Below the pieces are notes generated by a model. That model was given only the letters and a program-made list of their open reading frames with translations, did no database searches and was not told where the DNA came from. DNA of 64,000 nucleotides from an uncultured Bacilli bacterium (GTDB lineage Bacteria; Bacillota_I; Bacilli_A; RFN20; CAG-449), in the NCBI GenBank assembly GCA_947627505.1, contig CANQWG010000002.1:17444-81443 (forward strand). The letters are read 5' to 3'. A program made the translations under genes and the position numbers. Numbering within the stretch: the first letter of the stretch is position 1; each line of letters begins with the position of its first letter. Shown here piece by piece: positions 25,068 through 31,217 of this stretch.

Positions 25068-25160
25068 CTAGTGAAAGACGATGATTGCATAGACGAGTGA
25101 AAGTAAAGCAGCTATTAGACTACAGATGAGAAGCGCAATCGTATATTGTCTTTTTTTCAT
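25068..25160 (-). CDS. possible 30-aa hydrophobic micropeptide (MKKRQYTIALLICSLIAALLSLVYAIIVFH) ending at the ruvA RBS
   Basis: ATG-initiated ORF. Its TAG stop is immediately followed by the GGAGG RBS of ruvA. Its own RBS is weak. Confidence 0.2.
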   Translation of the reverse strand: MKKRQYTIALLICSLIAALLSLVYAIIVFH

Positions 25161-25199: not shown

Positions 25200-26774
25200 T
25201 TAAATTTTATTTGAAACATTCAATGTCGCATAATCATCATTGATATCGGTAATTACGAAGTCAAAAAGCAATTTTTGACCATCGTTAAAGGTAAAATCTC
25301 TATAGACTGTCTTTCCGAAATTATCGAGTTTGTAGAACAAAGAATCGTCACTTGCGCATCCGTCTCCACGATTTAAAGTATATCTGCCACTGGATTCCAT
25401 AAGCGTCAACAACTTACATCGATCGATGGATTCACTTAGCGTATTGCTATGAGCAATATTGGTATAATACGTCAAATAACGCGAATCCACCTCAATATTT
25501 TCGGTATAGCCGGAGAATAAATAACCATTCAAGGCATAATTGTAACGGAAAAGACCCAATCGTGAATCGACATGAAAGACGCGGATCCCCGGTTTTGAAT
25601 ATCCTTTTATTCCGTTACCTAAATAAGGCGCTTTACTATCTAAAGCATTGAGATTAGTCGGAGTATAATATTCGATGATAAGATATTCACCAAATGGCGA
25701 ACCATTGAATTGGCCACTAGGAATAATCAAAAAATCGCCCTCGTTCTCAAAAGGCGCAAGTTGATATTCTTGTTCCTTTTGAACAATTCGCGGTTCTACC
25801 CACCCAAGTAGAAGTTTTGAAAACGGATTGTGGTCGATAATATTTGCGTCCATCATGTCAATTGCACCACATGGAGCATCGTCTTGATCGTAAGAATAGT
25901 AATCATCTAATCCTAAAAGATGGCCAGTTTCATGAATGTAAGTATGGGCATCCGGAAGTTTGTAGCCTCCATCATACATAAATTCAATTGAAGCCCAGGA
26001 ATAAACATTAGCAGTTGGCGATTTGACGCTTCCGACGTTGCTATTACCTAAGTCCCAATAAGTATAAGCCCATAAAAGATCATCATATTCAGAATTTGAA
26101 ATTTCATAATTTTCAGAATGAACAATCCATAAAGCGTCGATAAAACCATCGTGGTTTTGATCAAATGACGAAACGAGATCTGGATATGTATTTTTAAACC
26201 ATGCCACGGCTTCCCTTATCACTAAATATGTCGGATCGATGATATCATCATTGAGATAAGCGTTTGCAAGCATCGATAAAGAATATGAAGAATCAAACCA
26301 ATCAGTCACTAGGCCTTGAATATTTAAATAGCCATAACTAGATTTATAATAAAACGATGAGACCGATTCATAACCGGTTGCCGCTGTTTCTCCAAAAAAG
26401 CTTCTTTCGATATCACTTTTAAGTCTCGCACATCCTTTGCTGTTGCTTTGGCAAGTGCGACCATTTTTAAAATTGACGGGAATCACGAGAAGATTCTGAT
26501 TGCCTAAAGAATTAAAAGCGATCGTCGGATAGCCGTTTTCGTGGAGCTTTTTTAACGTATTGTGGGTAATCACTTGAGAATCTAATGCCTTTTTCGCGCG
26601 ATTATTCGTATATGAAAAATCATCGCTTGTCGGATGATACCAACTTGGAGTTTCAAAATTTTCGACATCTTGCGATTGGTCAACTTGACTATCGCTACTT
26701 TGAGGGAACCTAAAGTCACACGAACTTAAAAGCAAAGTTCCCAATAAAAACAAAATTCCTAAAAGTTTCTTCAT
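25200..26774 (-). CDS. secreted zinc metalloprotease lipoprotein (HExxHxxGxxD; InhA/M6-like or snapalysin-like), paralog 1
   Basis: Lipobox LLLSSC. Motif YIHETGHLLGLDDYYSYD. The core is shared with the next two ORFs (LLVIPVNF, SVSSFYYKSSYG, LLWAYTYWDL, PCGxIDMMD). Confidence 0.75.
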   Translation of the reverse strand: MKKLLGILFLLGTLLLSSCDFRFPQSSDSQVDQSQDVENFETPSWYHPTSDDFSYTNNRAKKALDSQVITHNTLKKLHENGYPTIAFNSLGNQNLLVIPVNFKNGRTCQSNSKGCARLKSDIERSFFGETAATGYESVSSFYYKSSYGYLNIQGLVTDWFDSSYSLSMLANAYLNDDIIDPTYLVIREAVAWFKNTYPDLVSSFDQNHDGFIDALWIVHSENYEISNSEYDDLLWAYTYWDLGNSNVGSVKSPTANVYSWASIEFMYDGGYKLPDAHTYIHETGHLLGLDDYYSYDQDDAPCGAIDMMDANIIDHNPFSKLLLGWVEPRIVQKEQEYQLAPFENEGDFLIIPSGQFNGSPFGEYLIIEYYTPTNLNALDSKAPYLGNGIKGYSKPGIRVFHVDSRLGLFRYNYALNGYLFSGYTENIEVDSRYLTYYTNIAHSNTLSESIDRCKLLTLMESSGRYTLNRGDGCASDDSLFYKLDNFGKTVYRDFTFNDGQKLLFDFVITDINDDYATLNVSNKI

Positions 26775-28768
26775 AATATTTTCCTAGAAATCGATAACGC
26801 TACGCCCTTGTCATCCATATCTCCGATTTGAATCGTGAATTTCAACGATGATCCATCGTTGAATGAAAAGTTATTATAGATACTACTGCCGAACACTTGC
26901 CCGGTTTTTAATAACGTTTCATTAGTCGCATATCCACTTTCAAAAAGCGTATTGGTTCCCTCAGCATTTAAAAGCGTGATTTTTCGTACATTGTAATCGC
27001 GAGAAGAAGTGGTATTTGAAGCATAATATCCGATATTTCCGGAAACTTGAGTGGTAAAACCACCGCCGCCAGTTAATCCCGCATAGCGATAAAGGCGATT
27101 GTCGACATGGTATATTTTAATGCCGTTTTCAGTGAAGCACTTAAGATAACGTTCGTCATAACCATATGCATCGCTTTCATTTAAGCCGGTCGGAGTATAG
27201 TATTCCACCAACAAAAATTCATTAAATACAGAACCATTCCACGTAGATGCGGGAATCAGTAAAAACTGACCACTAGAACTAAAAGGTCTTAAAACTAATT
27301 TTTGTTCCGTGGCGATGACTGTCGGATTAGCCCACTCTAATAGCATTTTAGAAAATGAGTTATGATCTCCGACATTAAAATCCATCATGTCGATACCACC
27401 ACATGGCATCGAATAATCGATTCCGACACCCGTCGCGTTACTTCCATAGTTATAATTGTAATAATCGTCTAATCCCAACAGATGACCGGTTTCATGAATG
27501 TAAGTATGAGCATCAACTTTACTACGATTTTGGCGCTTTAAAAAATCATAAGAAGCCCAACAATAGCTTCTAGCCATCGGCGAAACTGCAGATGCCCGAC
27601 TATCGAGATCCCAATATGTATAGGCCCACAACAAATCCGAATACTTTCTTAAACTCAAATTAGAGCGCGAAGAATTATAATACGGAGCGGCATAGACTAA
27701 CCACACGCCGTCGATGAAGCCGTCGTGATCATTATCGAAATCTAAAATATCATCGTATTGAGATTTATACCAACGAATCGCTTCACGTAAAACAAAGTAA
27801 GTTGGATCGTTATATAATCCGCGCAATGATTCAATGTCAGAGACATCGTAATTAAGATTGAACCAATCGCTCACTTTTCCTTTTATACTAAGTTGACCAT
27901 AACTTGATTTGTAGTAATAAGAAGACACCGATTCCCAATCAGTGTACTCACTCTTAGCAAAGAACGCTTTTTCGATATCTTGGCGTGCTTTAGAACAACC
28001 CCCATCGATATCATTACAAGTATAATCGTTAAAATTAACCGGAATAACCAATAGATTCGGTTCTCCCCGACTTGGAAATTGATAAGTGCCGCGGTAATTT
28101 TGGTAATCCGAAAGTTTAGTATCATATACCGAAGTCATATTTATCGATGGTGATGGTTGATTATTTTGCAATTCATATTTATCAAACAATGTTCCGTTAA
28201 TTTGAAAATCTCCTTCACGAATAATCACTCTTTTGAGGCCAAAAGACAAGTTGTCGTCTTTTTGCAATAACATGATTTTTATCTGATTGATGGTATTATC
28301 ACCGCATGGTAGTTTTACACTGACCGATGAAGAAGATACGTCCTTTTCATCAAAGTAAGCAGTAGAAATCAAAGTATTATCGTGATATGCCGAAACTTCA
28401 AAAAGTAAGTTTGTTATCGGAAGATGAGTTGTTTCATTGTACGCAAACTCAATTTCCACAATCGCATCGTTAGCGATATTCAATTGTGGCGACAAAATAT
28501 AATCATTGCTATTCTCAAAAAGTATCAAAGAAGTAGGAGATAATTGAAAAACTCTTTTTGAATATGTCCATCCTTGTGGCGCGGTAAATTGGTGCACAAA
28601 AGATTGATCGTTATAAACGACAGTTGATGTTTCCTCACTAAAAGAACTTGAAATGAGATTTTCTTCCAAAGAGGAACTATTTAAACTATAATCAAAAAAA
28701 GTATCTTTTGAGCATGAGCTTAACAACATTATGGTAGCAAATGCCAAAGATTTGAACTTCATTTTCAT
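26771..28768 (-). CDS. secreted zinc metalloprotease lipoprotein, paralog 2, with an extra ~200-aa N-terminal domain
   Basis: Lipobox MLLSSC. Motif YIHETGHLLGLDDYYNYN. 4-nt overlap with paralog 1. Its N-terminal domain is related to that of paralog 3. Confidence 0.75.
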   Translation of the reverse strand: MKMKFKSLAFATIMLLSSCSKDTFFDYSLNSSSLEENLISSSFSEETSTVVYNDQSFVHQFTAPQGWTYSKRVFQLSPTSLILFENSNDYILSPQLNIANDAIVEIEFAYNETTHLPITNLLFEVSAYHDNTLISTAYFDEKDVSSSSVSVKLPCGDNTINQIKIMLLQKDDNLSFGLKRVIIREGDFQINGTLFDKYELQNNQPSPSINMTSVYDTKLSDYQNYRGTYQFPSRGEPNLLVIPVNFNDYTCNDIDGGCSKARQDIEKAFFAKSEYTDWESVSSYYYKSSYGQLSIKGKVSDWFNLNYDVSDIESLRGLYNDPTYFVLREAIRWYKSQYDDILDFDNDHDGFIDGVWLVYAAPYYNSSRSNLSLRKYSDLLWAYTYWDLDSRASAVSPMARSYCWASYDFLKRQNRSKVDAHTYIHETGHLLGLDDYYNYNYGSNATGVGIDYSMPCGGIDMMDFNVGDHNSFSKMLLEWANPTVIATEQKLVLRPFSSSGQFLLIPASTWNGSVFNEFLLVEYYTPTGLNESDAYGYDERYLKCFTENGIKIYHVDNRLYRYAGLTGGGGFTTQVSGNIGYYASNTTSSRDYNVRKITLLNAEGTNTLFESGYATNETLLKTGQVFGSSIYNNFSFNDGSSLKFTIQIGDMDDKGVALSISRKIL

Positions 28769-28957
28769 ACCATCATCTCCTTTTGATTGTTTAATATTTT
28801 AACATCTATTATTTCAATATCAATAAAATTTCAAAATGTAAAACAAATCGACAAAATAATGAAAACATATTTTTCACTTTTTGTTGCGCTTTATTAGTTT
28901 CTTAAATATAAATTATTAATATTTTATTTTTGCGTTACATTAATTTAATTTCATTAT

Positions 28958-28995
28958 AAAAACCAATGTACCTTTAACTCAGCACATTGGTTTTT
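28958..28995 (-). terminator. rho-independent terminator after metalloprotease paralog 3
   Basis: Hairpin AAAAACCAATGT-(14 nt)-ACATTGGTTTTT, immediately downstream of the stop at 28998. Confidence 0.65.
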
Positions 28996-28997
28996 GA

Positions 28998-31097
28998 TTA
29001 CTTTTTAGTAAATGTGATCGTCGTCGATTCGTCACTCATGGCCGTGATTGTAAAAGTCCACTTTAAATCTTTGCCATCATTGAATTTGAAATCCTCAAAT
29101 TTAGTAACTCCGAAATCATCGTTCAACTTGAATAAACTGCTGTTTGTAGCGGGTTGATCGCGGAAGAAACTATTTGATTCATCAGCCTCCAGTAAATGCA
29201 ATTTACGGAATCCGTCATAGTTTTCTCTCGTTGTCGAGTTTTCGTGAGCAAAACCTAAGCCTTGTCCGTCTGCAAGTCCAAAGACGACTTGATCAGTATA
29301 TCTTCCGAGTTCATAGCTGTTTGATTGAGAATTAGCTCTTAAAATCGCCAATCGTGAATCGACATGATAAATTTTAATGCCAATAGTATCCATCGCCTTA
29401 AAATTGTATTTGGCATATGGAACTTCAGAATCAAGTTGATTGAGACCGGTCGGTGTATAAAATTCAATCATCAGATATTCTGCAAACGGGTTATCTTTAA
29501 AGCTTTCATTTGGAACTAAAATGCAATCGCCACTTGATTCAAATGGTCTAATAGTCAATGATGTGGTATTATCTTTGACCACTTGAGGTTCAACCCAATT
29601 CAAGAGGAATTTCGAATAAGCATTATGATCCACGATATTGTTGTCCATCATATCGACTTTTCCAGCCGGACTATACATATCGTTGCGTCCGTCACGATCG
29701 TAGTTGTAATAATCCGGAAGTCCTAAAATATGTCCGGTTTCATGAATGAAAGTGTGCGCATCGGGTTTATCATATCCGCCTTCATACATGAAGTCATATG
29801 AAGCCCAACCATAACAATAAGCATTTGGCGAAGAGAAATTAGGTTGCACCGTGTAGTCACGATGGACAAATGCCCAATATAGATCGCTTGGTAAATGGGT
29901 ATTATCGCTATTATCGGAACATACTCCTGTTTTTGAATAGTTACAGTTATTTTGTGCATAAACCATCCACACAGAATCAATGTAACCATCACCATCAGAA
30001 TCGTAATCGTCGATATCATCGTATGTTTGTTTATACCATTCAATCGATTCGCGAAGAGCAAACCACGAGTTATTTCCATAATTCATATGGAGCAATTCGC
30101 TGGTGGTGCAAGGTAAAGTGAAAGGTTTAGTGACACGACCGGTAATATTCAAATAGCCGTAACTTGACTTATAATAAAATGACGATACCGATTCCCAACC
30201 AACTTCATCTTCAGTTCCGAAGAAACTCGCTTCGATATCGTGACGAGCTTGATCTTCGTCTTCAAATTTAACGTCTTGGAATTGAATCGGAATAACTAGC
30301 AATTTTCTTTCGCCGGTCGATTTTAAACTTAAAGATTTGCTGGCATTTGAATAGTCTTCTAAAGTCGAGCCGGTAGCTACAGTTCTTTCCGGAACCGCTT
30401 TTTCAACATTATTAACCATCGATACATTAGAAACATAGTCATCATCATCTACGATGAGGGATTCACTTCCCGCGCCAGAATAAATCTTAACTTTTCCGAT
30501 TCCGATGTTTAAACCGAAAGTTGAAGCTTTTTTAGCGTAGATAATTTTAACAAATTTTATAGTCTTTCCTTCGTTTGGAAGATCAAAGACAACATTGCCA
30601 CGATCGGTAGAATTAGGGAATTGTTCACTGTGAGTCAACGATTGTTCACTGATAACATTTTTATCGGCATCCAAAGCTTGAACCGTAAATAAAAGTTCTC
30701 CTTGTTTCATCACACGTTCAGTGCCATTTAACGCGAGGAAGATGGCGACATGAATGTTGCAATCAGCGGAAAATTCTTTACTTATAAGATAATCGCCACT
30801 GCGATTCATCTTTAACATTTTAGTTCCGACACTGACATTATCGTTATCGTAAAACGTAAACTTTTTGGAATATTCCCAACCATCAGGAGCATCTACTTGG
30901 TCATAAAATTTTTGCTCGACATATGTTTTATCGGGACCTTCACTTAAGGTTGGTGAAGAACTCGTCACTGAATCCGTTAAGGATGTAGAATCTTGACTAG
31001 AATTATTGTTTTCTTCTCCATTATTACAACTTACCATCGCTGAAGTCGTAAATGAGAGTAAAGCCAATAAAACTAATAATTTGTGTTTTTTCATCAT
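28998..31097 (-). CDS. secreted zinc metalloprotease lipoprotein, paralog 3, with an N-terminal accessory domain
   Basis: Signal peptide and lipobox AMVSC. Motif FIHETGHILGLPDYYNYD. Same conserved core blocks as paralogs 1 and 2. Confidence 0.75.
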   Translation of the reverse strand: MMKKHKLLVLLALLSFTTSAMVSCNNGEENNNSSQDSTSLTDSVTSSSPTLSEGPDKTYVEQKFYDQVDAPDGWEYSKKFTFYDNDNVSVGTKMLKMNRSGDYLISKEFSADCNIHVAIFLALNGTERVMKQGELLFTVQALDADKNVISEQSLTHSEQFPNSTDRGNVVFDLPNEGKTIKFVKIIYAKKASTFGLNIGIGKVKIYSGAGSESLIVDDDDYVSNVSMVNNVEKAVPERTVATGSTLEDYSNASKSLSLKSTGERKLLVIPIQFQDVKFEDEDQARHDIEASFFGTEDEVGWESVSSFYYKSSYGYLNITGRVTKPFTLPCTTSELLHMNYGNNSWFALRESIEWYKQTYDDIDDYDSDGDGYIDSVWMVYAQNNCNYSKTGVCSDNSDNTHLPSDLYWAFVHRDYTVQPNFSSPNAYCYGWASYDFMYEGGYDKPDAHTFIHETGHILGLPDYYNYDRDGRNDMYSPAGKVDMMDNNIVDHNAYSKFLLNWVEPQVVKDNTTSLTIRPFESSGDCILVPNESFKDNPFAEYLMIEFYTPTGLNQLDSEVPYAKYNFKAMDTIGIKIYHVDSRLAILRANSQSNSYELGRYTDQVVFGLADGQGLGFAHENSTTRENYDGFRKLHLLEADESNSFFRDQPATNSSLFKLNDDFGVTKFEDFKFNDGKDLKWTFTITAMSDESTTITFTKK

Positions 31098-31217
31098 TTA
31101 ACACCTCTCTTTTTTAGTTATTATATGGATTAAGTTTTATAAATGCAAATAAATTACTTAATTTTATGATTTTACTATTCATAATACTCAAATTCAAAAA
31201 CAACATTTCAATATCAA

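What the first reader, a model, noticed from the sequence alone, without database searches (positions are those of the whole stretch)
25200..31097. Tandem triplet of secreted HExxHxxGxxD zinc-metalloprotease lipoproteins
Three consecutive lipoproteins (525, 665 and 699 aa) share a catalytic core with the motif HETGH(L/I)LGL(D/P)DYY. The His-His-Asp ligand arrangement is that of snapalysin (M7) and InhA (M6) type metzincin-like enzymes rather than classical HExxHxxGxxH. The two larger paralogs add a related ~200-aa N-terminal domain. Paralogs 1 and 2 overlap by 4 nt, indicating operon-coupled expression. A triplicated, lipid-anchored protease module directly upstream of a triplicated LRR-adhesin module suggests a dedicated surface host-interaction or nutrient-acquisition island. 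Anchored InhA-like proteases are associated with degradation of host proteins and antimicrobial peptides.
Basis: partly seen in the sequence, partly recalled or inferred. Interest (0 to 1): 0.6.

Follow-up and report, generated by a model that had tools for sequence, protein, structure and literature searches.

The report
Three tandem M6-like zinc-protease lipoproteins
Three neighbouring genes in an uncultured rabbit-gut bacterium encode membrane-anchored zinc proteases distantly related to Bacillus immune inhibitor A, and they are ordinary members of a very large, unstudied family that most likely digests outside protein for food.

Summary
Three minus-strand ORFs (25200-26774, 26771-28768, 28998-31097; 524, 665 and 699 aa) are 36-42% identical paralogues. 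Each has a lipobox and an intact HETGH(L/I)LGL(D/P)DYY site, and the first two overlap by ATGA.

The zincin reading is supported:
- TIGR03296 (M6 domain) matches nearly full length at E 5e-25 to 5e-27, though below its curated cut-off.
- AlphaFold models (pLDDT 83 and 79) find B. anthracis InhA2 (4yu5/4yu6) as the best PDB fold, followed by other metzincins.
- The extra N-terminal domain of the two larger proteins is a jelly-roll beta-sandwich resembling carbohydrate-binding modules and gingipain adhesin domains. By sequence it was found only in the window's own clusters and one close relative (P0016).

The "dedicated island with the LRR genes" is not supported:
- In two distant relatives a single orthologous gene sits in the same obg-ruvAB gap.
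- No LRR neighbour recurs in 76 other loci.
- Oligopeptide (Opp) importer genes flank family members in 16 of those 76 loci.

The family has about 2000 clusters at 50% identity, 2-8 copies in most related genomes, and is auto-annotated "M6 family metalloprotease-like". This scan has already reported it in at least 24 other genomes. The verdict is real but ordinary. The most likely function is surface proteolysis feeding peptide import.

The parts
25200..26774 (-). M6_1 gene (P0001): 524-aa lipoprotein made of a linker, an M6-like catalytic domain and a C-terminal beta domain
   Evidence: ORF. TIGR03296 E 5e-25, profile positions 13-273 of 286. Model pLDDT 83, pTM 0.82. Best PDB fold InhA2, E 3e-12, TMq 0.53-0.55.
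26771..28768 (-). M6_2 gene (P0002): 665-aa lipoprotein with an N-terminal beta-sandwich domain plus the M6-like module; its stop overlaps the M6_1 start (ATGA at 26771-26774)
   Evidence: RBS AAAGGAG lies upstream of the ATG.
28998..31097 (-). M6_3 gene (P0003): 699-aa lipoprotein with an N-terminal beta-sandwich domain plus the M6-like module
   Evidence: Model pLDDT 79, pTM 0.73. Fold hits are InhA2 plus CBM and cleaved-adhesin domains.
25896..25934 (-). Zinc site of M6_1, HETGHLLGLDDYY (His281, Glu282, His285, Gly288, Asp291)
   Evidence: H281, E282, H285, D291, Y292 and Y293 are invariant in A1, and G288 is nearly so.
27458..27496 (-). Zinc site of M6_2, HETGHLLGLDDYY (residues 425-437)
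29706..29744 (-). Zinc site of M6_3, HETGHILGLPDYY (residues 452-464)
25827..25859 (-). Conserved DMMDxNxxDHN block of M6_1, a candidate Met-turn 15-17 residues after the Asp ligand. Equivalent blocks are at 27359-27391 and 29622-29654.
   Evidence: M307, M308, D309, N311, D314 and H315 are invariant. Coordinates. In the model it lies between the active-site helix and the next helix. Its role as a Met-turn is inferred.
26136..26162 (-). DxDxDG-type loop DQNHDGFID of M6_1, a probable structural Ca2+ site. Equivalent loops are at 27710-27736 and 29976-30002.
   Evidence: D205 and D213 are invariant; D209 and G210 are at least 90% conserved. The A1 profile weakly matches EF-hand proteins at this position. 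The M6 enzyme PrtV is stabilised by calcium (PMC2613228). Calcium binding here is inferred.
30477..30935 (-). N-terminal jelly-roll beta-sandwich domain of M6_3 (residues about 55-207)
   Evidence: All-beta in the model. Foldseek hits to CBM4, CBM16 and CBM6, gingipain K1/K3 cleaved-adhesin and Eph ligand-binding domains at E about 1e-6 to 1e-5; these hits are absent for M6_1, which lacks the domain. By sequence it was found only in its own cluster and in P0016 (65% identity).
28211..28615 (-). Homologous N-terminal domain of M6_2 (residues about 52-186)
   Evidence: 28% identity to the M6_3 domain, E 3e-10
26718..26774 (-). Lipoprotein signal peptide of M6_1, ending LLSS|C19. The others are at 28712-28768 (C19) and 31026-31097 (C24).
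   Evidence: The Cys is invariant in A3. The genome encodes lgt and lspA above their curated cut-offs.
28958..28995 (-). Terminator hairpin plus U tract directly after the M6_3 stop codon
   Evidence: -18.8 kcal/mol, z -6.2, and none of 200 shuffles folded as well. Sequence.
28796..28823 (-). Promoter-like site (TTGATA, 16-nt spacer, TG-TAAAAT) ahead of M6_2
   Evidence: Consensus scan, 10 of 12 matches with an extended -10 TG. This is a consensus match only.
31120..31149 (-). Promoter-like site (TTTGCA, 18-nt spacer, TATAAT) ahead of M6_3
   Evidence: Consensus scan, 10 of 12 matches. This is a consensus match only.

Best explanation
The three genes encode lipid-anchored, outward-facing zinc endopeptidases of a divergent M6-like (immune inhibitor A / thuringilysin-like) metzincin subfamily.

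Proposed mechanism:
- Each precursor is exported, lipidated on the lipobox Cys by Lgt and cleaved by LspA.
- The mature enzyme hangs from the membrane on a Ser-rich, disordered tether.
- The catalytic domain binds zinc through two His and one Asp of HExxHxxGxxD, with the Glu as general base.
- A conserved DMMD block probably forms the Met-turn, and a DxDxDG loop probably holds a stabilising calcium.
- The two larger paralogues carry an N-terminal jelly-roll domain that probably holds a glycan or protein substrate near the active site.

The most likely job is to cut proteins in the gut lumen into peptides that an Opp-type importer takes up, feeding a 1.38-Mb reduced genome.

Shown here: homology, fold, motif conservation, lipoprotein features, gene order and family distribution. 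Inferred: catalytic activity, the Met-turn, calcium binding, the substrate and the nutritional role.

The triplet most likely arose by duplication of a gene that has long resided between obg and ruvAB.
For: Homology and fold:
- TIGR03296 matches at E 5e-25 to 5e-27 over nearly the whole profile.
- PF05547 matches 10 of 34 family members and is precomputed for several close homologues.
- The best PDB fold is InhA2 4yu5/4yu6 (E 3e-12, TMq 0.53-0.55), followed by fragilysin and ADAMTS.
- H, E, H, D, YY, MMD and DH are invariant across 34-40 homologues and the zinc motif is present in 104 of the 108 family ORFs from 76 other loci.
- An Asp third ligand is the stated hallmark of snapalysins and thuringilysins (PMC12237041).

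Lipoprotein features:
- The lipobox Cys is invariant.
- lgt, lspA and an OppA-type binding protein are present in the genome.

Context:
- Opp-type ATPases (oligo_HPY) lie on the same strand within 6 kb of family members in 16 of 76 loci, and permeases in 11. All eight ATPases and five permeases that I scanned were Opp-type.
- An M24 aminopeptidase is a neighbour in 13 loci.
- 36 of 41 related genomes have matches, with 2-8 in most of them.

Origin:
- The order obg, M6 gene, micro-ORF, ruvA, ruvB is kept in L055 and L085, whose genes group with M6_1 and M6_2 (97*).
- One clade for all three paralogues is not rejected (p-AU 0.475).
Against: - No member of this subfamily has been assayed, and no RNA or protein evidence of expression was found.
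- Scores fall below the curated cut-offs of TIGR03296 and PF05547, and sequence search finds no solved relative beyond the motif.
- In this genome the Opp binding-protein gene lies on another contig, not beside the triplet.
- Related genomes are not independent, so the Opp adjacency count overstates the support.
- I had no model coordinates, so the zinc-site geometry and the Met-turn were not inspected.
- Whether there is a latency mechanism (a propeptide) is unknown.
Confidence: 0.62

Rival explanations
1. They are host-interaction or defence proteases. Like InhA of the Bacillus cereus group, they would mainly cleave host or competitor molecules at the cell surface, such as antimicrobial peptides, IgA or mucins, to protect the bacterium or help it colonise, rather than to feed it.
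For: - The closest characterised relatives, InhA and PrtV, degrade antimicrobial peptides and host proteins (PMC2613228).
- Weaker fold hits include the gut glycopeptidases OgpA and Amuc_1438 and the T. ramosa IgA peptidase.
- The N-terminal domain resembles gingipain adhesin domains and carbohydrate-binding modules.
- BspA-type LRR surface proteins are encoded next door.
Against: - The family also occurs in many freshwater-lake and other environmental MAGs, where there is no host.
- Its recurrent neighbours are Opp importers and an M24 aminopeptidase, not adhesins.
- The LRR adjacency was seen only in this genus.
- The fold hits to the glycopeptidases and the IgA peptidase are weak (E about 1e-3, TM about 0.2).
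Confidence: 0.2
2. They are maturases or sheddases for the cell's own surface proteins. They would trim or release other lipoproteins, for instance the neighbouring LRR proteins, and so remodel the surface.
For: They lie next to three LRR lipoprotein genes in this genus, and they are anchored to the membrane alongside their potential substrates.
Against: - No LRR gene neighbours the family in 76 other loci.
- Syntenic single-copy relatives lack LRR genes.
- Having 2-8 divergent copies with varied N-terminal binding domains fits diverse external substrates better than one self substrate.
Confidence: 0.08
3. They are catalytically dead binding proteins (pseudo-proteases) that keep the fold for adhesion only.
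For: None specific. The only grounds are that activity is untested and that the scores fall below the curated family cut-offs.
Against: Every catalytic and structural signature residue is invariant across paralogues that are only 36-42% identical and across 34-40 homologues. That pattern indicates selection on catalysis.
Confidence: 0.03

Closest known systems
Immune inhibitor A (InhA1/InhA2) of the Bacillus cereus group and PrtV of Vibrio cholerae: MEROPS M6, 'thuringilysins'; Pfam PF05547, TIGR03296; PDB 4yu5/4yu6
   Same: - HExxHxxGxxD zinc motif with an Asp third ligand.
- Significant, nearly full-length match to the M6 domain profile.
- Best structural match, including the beta domain after the catalytic domain.
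- Extracellular location.
- Probable calcium stabilisation.
   Different: - Only about 12% identity in the structural alignment.
- Below the curated cut-offs, and not found by sequence search of the PDB.
- Lipid-anchored rather than freely secreted.
- About 470-aa core against about 750-800 aa.
- No recognisable propeptide.
- N-terminal accessory domains vary and sit before the catalytic domain, not after it.
- Present in multiple copies in reduced genomes of uncultured Bacilli.
Snapalysin (Streptomyces small neutral protease; MEROPS M7; PF02031; PDB 1c7k, 1kuh, 4hx3)
   Same: The local motif is almost identical (HETGHVLGLPDHY against HETGHILGLPDYY). It is the only PDB sequence hit.
   Different: Snapalysin is a single domain of about 130 aa. 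The match covers only about 40 residues around the motif and is below the cut-offs (24.1 against 25 bits; NF033628 22.5 against 300).
PrtP/Opp-type 'digest outside, import peptides' systems of lactic acid bacteria (named from my own knowledge)
   Same: The logic is the same: a surface-anchored protease together with an oligopeptide ABC importer. Family members are frequently encoded beside Opp operons.
   Different: PrtP is a subtilisin-type serine protease anchored to the cell wall, with no homology to these proteins. In this genome the triplet is not next to Opp.
Galactose-binding-like jelly-roll modules: CBM4, CBM6, CBM16 and the gingipain K1/K3 'cleaved adhesin' domains (for the N-terminal domain only)
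   Same: Predicted fold match at E about 1e-6 to 1e-5, with TM normalised to the target of 0.5-0.6. Protein-language-model neighbours include Cleaved_Adhesin, MAM, CBM_4_9 and F5_F8_type_C clusters.
   Different: No sequence or Pfam match. The ligand is unknown. The alignment behind the model is shallow for this domain, so confidence is uneven (block pLDDT 44-96).

Membership tests
MEROPS M6 / thuringilysin (PF05547, TIGR03296) | HExxHxxGxxD zinc-binding motif with Asp as the third ligand | tested here: met
   Present in all three proteins and invariant in the alignments. The definition is taken from PMC12237041.
MEROPS M6 / thuringilysin (PF05547, TIGR03296) | Statistically significant, nearly full-length homology to the M6 catalytic-domain profile | tested here: met
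   TIGR03296 E 5e-25, 2.5e-25 and 5.1e-27, covering profile positions about 3-274 of 286.
MEROPS M6 / thuringilysin (PF05547, TIGR03296) | Score above the curated trusted cut-offs of the family models | tested here: not met
   TIGR03296 gives 89-95.5 bits against a cut-off of 110.8. PF05547 gives 15.9 bits against 22, and for one protein only. I therefore file these as a divergent M6-like subfamily, not as canonical InhA orthologues.
MEROPS M6 / thuringilysin (PF05547, TIGR03296) | Fold of the catalytic domain plus the following beta domain as in InhA2 | tested here: met
   Foldseek top four hits are 4yu5 and 4yu6, E 3e-12 to 2e-11, TMq 0.52-0.55. Seen again with P0003.
MEROPS M6 / thuringilysin (PF05547, TIGR03296) | Met-turn beneath the zinc site (the metzincin hallmark) | tested here: inconclusive
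   An invariant DMMD block lies 15-17 residues after the Asp ligand and before the next helix. No model coordinates were available to check the geometry.
MEROPS M6 / thuringilysin (PF05547, TIGR03296) | N-terminal propeptide that keeps the enzyme latent (zymogen) | not testable with these tools
   The region between the lipobox and the catalytic domain is disordered in the model (pLDDT below 50). No propeptide could be identified or excluded.
MEROPS M7 / snapalysin (PF02031, NF033628) | Small single-domain enzyme of about 130 aa that matches the family model above its cut-off | tested here: not met
   The proteins are 524-699 aa. PF02031 gives at best 24.1 bits against 25, and NF033628 gives 22.5 against 300. 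The match is limited to the motif region.
Bacterial lipoproteins (Lgt/LspA pathway) | Signal peptide ending in a lipobox with an invariant Cys, and the processing enzymes present in the genome | tested here: met
   LLSS|C, LLSS|C and AMVS|C. The Cys is invariant in 40 sequences. lgt scores 186.5 bits and lspA 99.6 bits, both above their cut-offs. Lipidation itself was not shown.
Carbohydrate-binding-module or cleaved-adhesin jelly-roll domains (N-terminal domain of M6_2 and M6_3) | Beta-sandwich jelly-roll fold | tested here: met
   The model is all-beta over residues 55-207. Foldseek hits CBM4, CBM16, CBM6 and gingipain K1/K3 at E about 1e-6 to 1e-5; these hits are absent for P0001. The tool does not report query positions, so assigning the hits to this domain rests on that contrast.
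Carbohydrate-binding-module or cleaved-adhesin jelly-roll domains (N-terminal domain of M6_2 and M6_3) | Ligand-binding residues or demonstrated glycan or protein binding | not testable with these tools
   There is no sequence similarity to any CBM family. Binding needs an experiment.

The most novel reading that the evidence does not exclude
The genus-restricted N-terminal jelly-roll domains would turn M6_2 and M6_3 into glycan-guided peptidases that recognise a sugar on host mucin or dietary glycoprotein and cut the attached polypeptide. That would be a substrate-targeting mode not described for the M6 family. The three paralogues would then form a graded set: one general enzyme and two targeted ones.
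Probability: 0.15. Interest if true: 0.5.

Novelty: new member of a known kind. Interest (0 to 1): 0.25.

Why it matters
These enzymes are probably a main route by which a widespread group of small-genome, uncultured gut and freshwater Bacilli obtains amino acids. The family is large, with about 2000 clusters at 50% identity, yet it has no characterised member and no solved structure. One biochemical and structural study would therefore annotate thousands of genes. This particular locus adds little beyond another example. Its only distinctive features are the obg-ruvAB position and a genus-restricted binding domain.

Tried and rejected
- Sequence searches of the PDB with P0001, P0003 and the family profile A1 found only the snapalysin motif. 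Only the fold search recovered the InhA2 relationship.
- The InhA2 structure paper (PMC4706643) is not held, so I could not read the Met-turn position or the domain names from it.
- A sequence search with the N-terminal domain alone found only its own cluster and one close relative.
- No RNA-seq run holding the locus was found. I did not use read laying, because the only non-source run was of unknown type and could not show expression.
- I rejected the idea that the LRR and protease genes form one functional island.
- The free tree hinted that M6_3 has a separate origin. I did not adopt this, because the AU test does not reject a single clade and M6_2 and M6_3 share the N-terminal domain.
- My first count of tandem copies merged adjacent genes, so I replaced it with ORF-based counts.
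- Model coordinates cannot be reached from the Python box, so I measured no active-site distances.
Full report
**Observation**

The region holds three minus-strand ORFs at exactly the stated coordinates: 25200-26774 (M6_1, 524 aa), 26771-28768 (M6_2, 665 aa) and 28998-31097 (M6_3, 699 aa).
- They are clear paralogues, 42%, 36% and 40% identical, with E values from 2e-104 to 3e-109.
- Each starts with a lipoprotein signal peptide (LLSS|C19, LLSS|C19, AMVS|C24).
- Each carries HETGHLLGLDDYY or HETGHILGLPDYY.
- The stop of M6_2 and the start of M6_1 share ATGA at 26771-26774.
- The N-terminal extensions of M6_2 and M6_3 are homologous (28% identity, E 3e-10).

The only corrections are trivial: 524 aa rather than 525, and an extra folded domain of about 150 aa rather than 200.

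**Protein family**

Sequence evidence:
- NCBIfam TIGR03296 (M6 metalloprotease domain) matches all three over nearly the whole profile at E 5e-25 to 5e-27, but at 89-95.5 bits, below the curated cut-off of 110.8.
- Pfam M6 (PF05547) and M7 (PF02031) give only sub-threshold matches.
- PF05547 matches 10 of 34 aligned family members and is precomputed for several close homologues.
- Sequence search of the PDB finds nothing except the snapalysin motif.

Structure evidence:
- An AlphaFold2 model of M6_1, built on a 34-sequence alignment, is confident (pLDDT 83, pTM 0.82).
- Its four best PDB matches are the B. anthracis immune inhibitor A2 zymogen, 4yu5 and 4yu6 (E 3e-12 to 2e-11, TMq 0.52-0.55).
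- The next matches are other metzincins (fragilysin, ADAMTS) and, weakly, gut glycopeptidases and the T. ramosa IgA peptidase.

Conserved residues in alignments of 34 and 40 homologues:
- The two His, the Glu, the Asp and the following two Tyr are invariant; the motif Gly is at least 90% conserved.
- A DMMDxNxxDH block 15-17 residues downstream is invariant. By its position between the active-site helix and the next helix it is the likely Met-turn.
- A DxDxDG loop (DQNHDGFID and its equivalents) is conserved and looks like a structural calcium site.

Two papers agree with this. The literature states that an Asp third ligand is the rare variant found in snapalysins and thuringilysins (PMC12237041). 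The M6 enzyme PrtV needs calcium for stability (PMC2613228).

I conclude that these are intact members of a divergent M6-like subfamily. They are not canonical InhA orthologues and not M7 enzymes.

**The accessory domain**

The M6_3 model (pLDDT 79, pTM 0.73) shows an all-beta domain at residues about 55-207.
- The fold search with this model adds many hits that the M6_1 model did not give, at E about 1e-6 to 1e-5 with TM normalised to the target of 0.5-0.6. They are CBM4, CBM16 and CBM6 modules, gingipain K1/K3 cleaved-adhesin domains, Eph ligand-binding domains and the Fbs1 sugar-binding domain.
- Protein-language-model neighbours point the same way: Cleaved_Adhesin, MAM, CBM_4_9 and F5_F8_type_C.
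- By sequence the domain was found only in its own cluster and in one 65%-identical relative.
- Across the wider family the N-terminal part is highly variable, with total lengths up to about 1250 aa, while the C-terminal module of about 470 aa is constant.

This is the usual pattern of a catalytic core with interchangeable targeting modules.

**Organism and family size**

- The window belongs to a 1.38-Mb, 96.6%-complete genome of an uncultured Bacilli bacterium from rabbit gut.
- The genome has only these three copies.
- Two same-genus genomes keep the same triplet beside ruvAB.
- The profile finds matches in 36 of 41 related genomes, including 24 of 24 in the same family, mostly 2-8 per genome.
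- The profile finds 9290 clusters at 50% identity with E <= 1e-3, and 1973 with E <= 1e-30.
- At least 578 loci occur in species-representative genomes. Nearly all are uncultured Bacilli or Erysipelotrichales-type MAGs from animal guts and from lakes.
- JGI already labels many of them "M6 family metalloprotease-like protein".
- This scan has reported the same family in at least 24 other genomes.

**Context and origin**

The three genes lie between three BspA-type LRR_5 lipoprotein genes plus obg on one side and ruvA-ruvB on the other.

In two distant relatives, L055 and L085, a single M6-like lipoprotein gene sits in the same place, in the order obg, M6 gene, a short hydrophobic ORF, ruvA, ruvB.
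- Their genes group with M6_1 and M6_2 in a supported clade (SH-aLRT 97).
- M6_3 falls elsewhere in the free tree.
- Holding all nine genus copies together costs only 1.6 log-likelihood units (p-AU 0.475), and M6_2 and M6_3 share the N-terminal domain.

Local triplication of an old resident gene is therefore the simplest history. This counters the idea of a freshly inserted protease island.

The LRR adjacency is seen only in this genus. In one same-genus genome a group II intron reverse transcriptase is inserted between the LRR gene and M6_3. No LRR protein appears near the family in the other loci.

**Transcription units**

- A strong hairpin with a U tract follows the M6_3 stop codon (-18.8 kcal/mol, z -6.2).
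- Promoter-like sites and good ribosome-binding sites precede M6_3 and M6_2.
- The likely units are M6_3 alone and M6_2 with M6_1. This is inferred, not measured.

**Function**

I clustered the neighbours of family members in 76 loci outside the genus. The recurrent neighbours were:

| Neighbour | Loci (of 76) |
|---|---|
| Opp-type ABC ATPases with the oligo_HPY domain | 16 |
| Opp-type permeases | 11 |
| M24 aminopeptidase | 13 |
| rpoC, rpsL or rpsG | 11-12 |

- The Opp genes lie on the same strand as the protease genes, mostly just upstream of them.
- Every ATPase and permease I scanned (eight and five) was Opp-type.
- Because these genomes are related, the counts are not independent. They nevertheless span several clades of the tree.
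- The window's genome encodes lgt, lspA and an OppA-type binding protein elsewhere.

Together with the small genome, this favours surface proteolysis that feeds peptide import. An InhA-like role against host defence molecules, and a role in trimming the cell's own surface proteins, remain possible but have less support. A pseudo-enzyme is very unlikely given the invariant catalytic residues. No expression data could be found.

**Verdict**

The finding is real and the zincin interpretation is correct. It is an ordinary, already auto-annotated and repeatedly seen member of a large uncharacterised M6-like lipoprotein family. The only local points of interest are the conserved obg-ruvAB position and the genus-restricted jelly-roll domain.

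Noticed in passing
window 25068-25160 (-); L055 4132-4230 (+); L085 7423-7524 (+): A 30-33-aa hydrophobic micro-ORF sits directly upstream of ruvA in the window and in two distant syntenic relatives. The two relatives share NKI.SVHLG.IS. It may be a conserved small membrane peptide or a leader of the ruvAB operon.
   Followed up: partly
for example L084 7453-7935 (+) and L042 7551-8084 (+); 24 loci in all: An unknown protein of about 160 aa with several hydrophobic stretches and no Pfam match lies within 133 nt downstream, on the same strand, of M6-like genes in 22 of 76 loci. It is absent from the window's locus and could be a partner of that clade of proteases.
   Followed up: partly
L015 2607-3956 (+) (same-genus genome G001): A group II intron reverse transcriptase/maturase (RVT_1 plus GIIM) is inserted between the LRR_5 gene and the M6_3 orthologue in a same-genus genome, but not in the window.
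   Followed up: partly
window 26136-26162, 27710-27736, 29976-30002 (-): A conserved DxDxDG calcium-loop-like motif (D.[DN].DG..D) lies inside the catalytic domain of all three paralogues and of the whole family. It caused weak EF-hand (hippocalcin) hits in the PDB profile search.
   Followed up: partly
M6_1 residues 108 and 115 and M6_2 residues 251 and 258, against M6_3 residues about 275-285: A Cys-x6-Cys pair near the first beta strand, and a further Cys just before the DMMD block (M6_1 C302; M6_2 C455), are present in M6_1, M6_2 and most of the family but lost in M6_3. This suggests a disulfide that M6_3 does without.
   Followed up: no
L029, L034, L084 (record titles): Some genome bins that carry this Bacilli-type gene are titled Staphylococcus epidermidis, Alistipes shahii or Roseburia hominis. 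These are probably mislabelled or contaminated bins rather than gene transfer.
   Followed up: no
L060, L056 and about 10 other loci: In 11-12 of 76 loci the M6-like genes sit near rpoC, rpsL or rpsG. That would be a second conserved housekeeping position for this family.
   Followed up: partly
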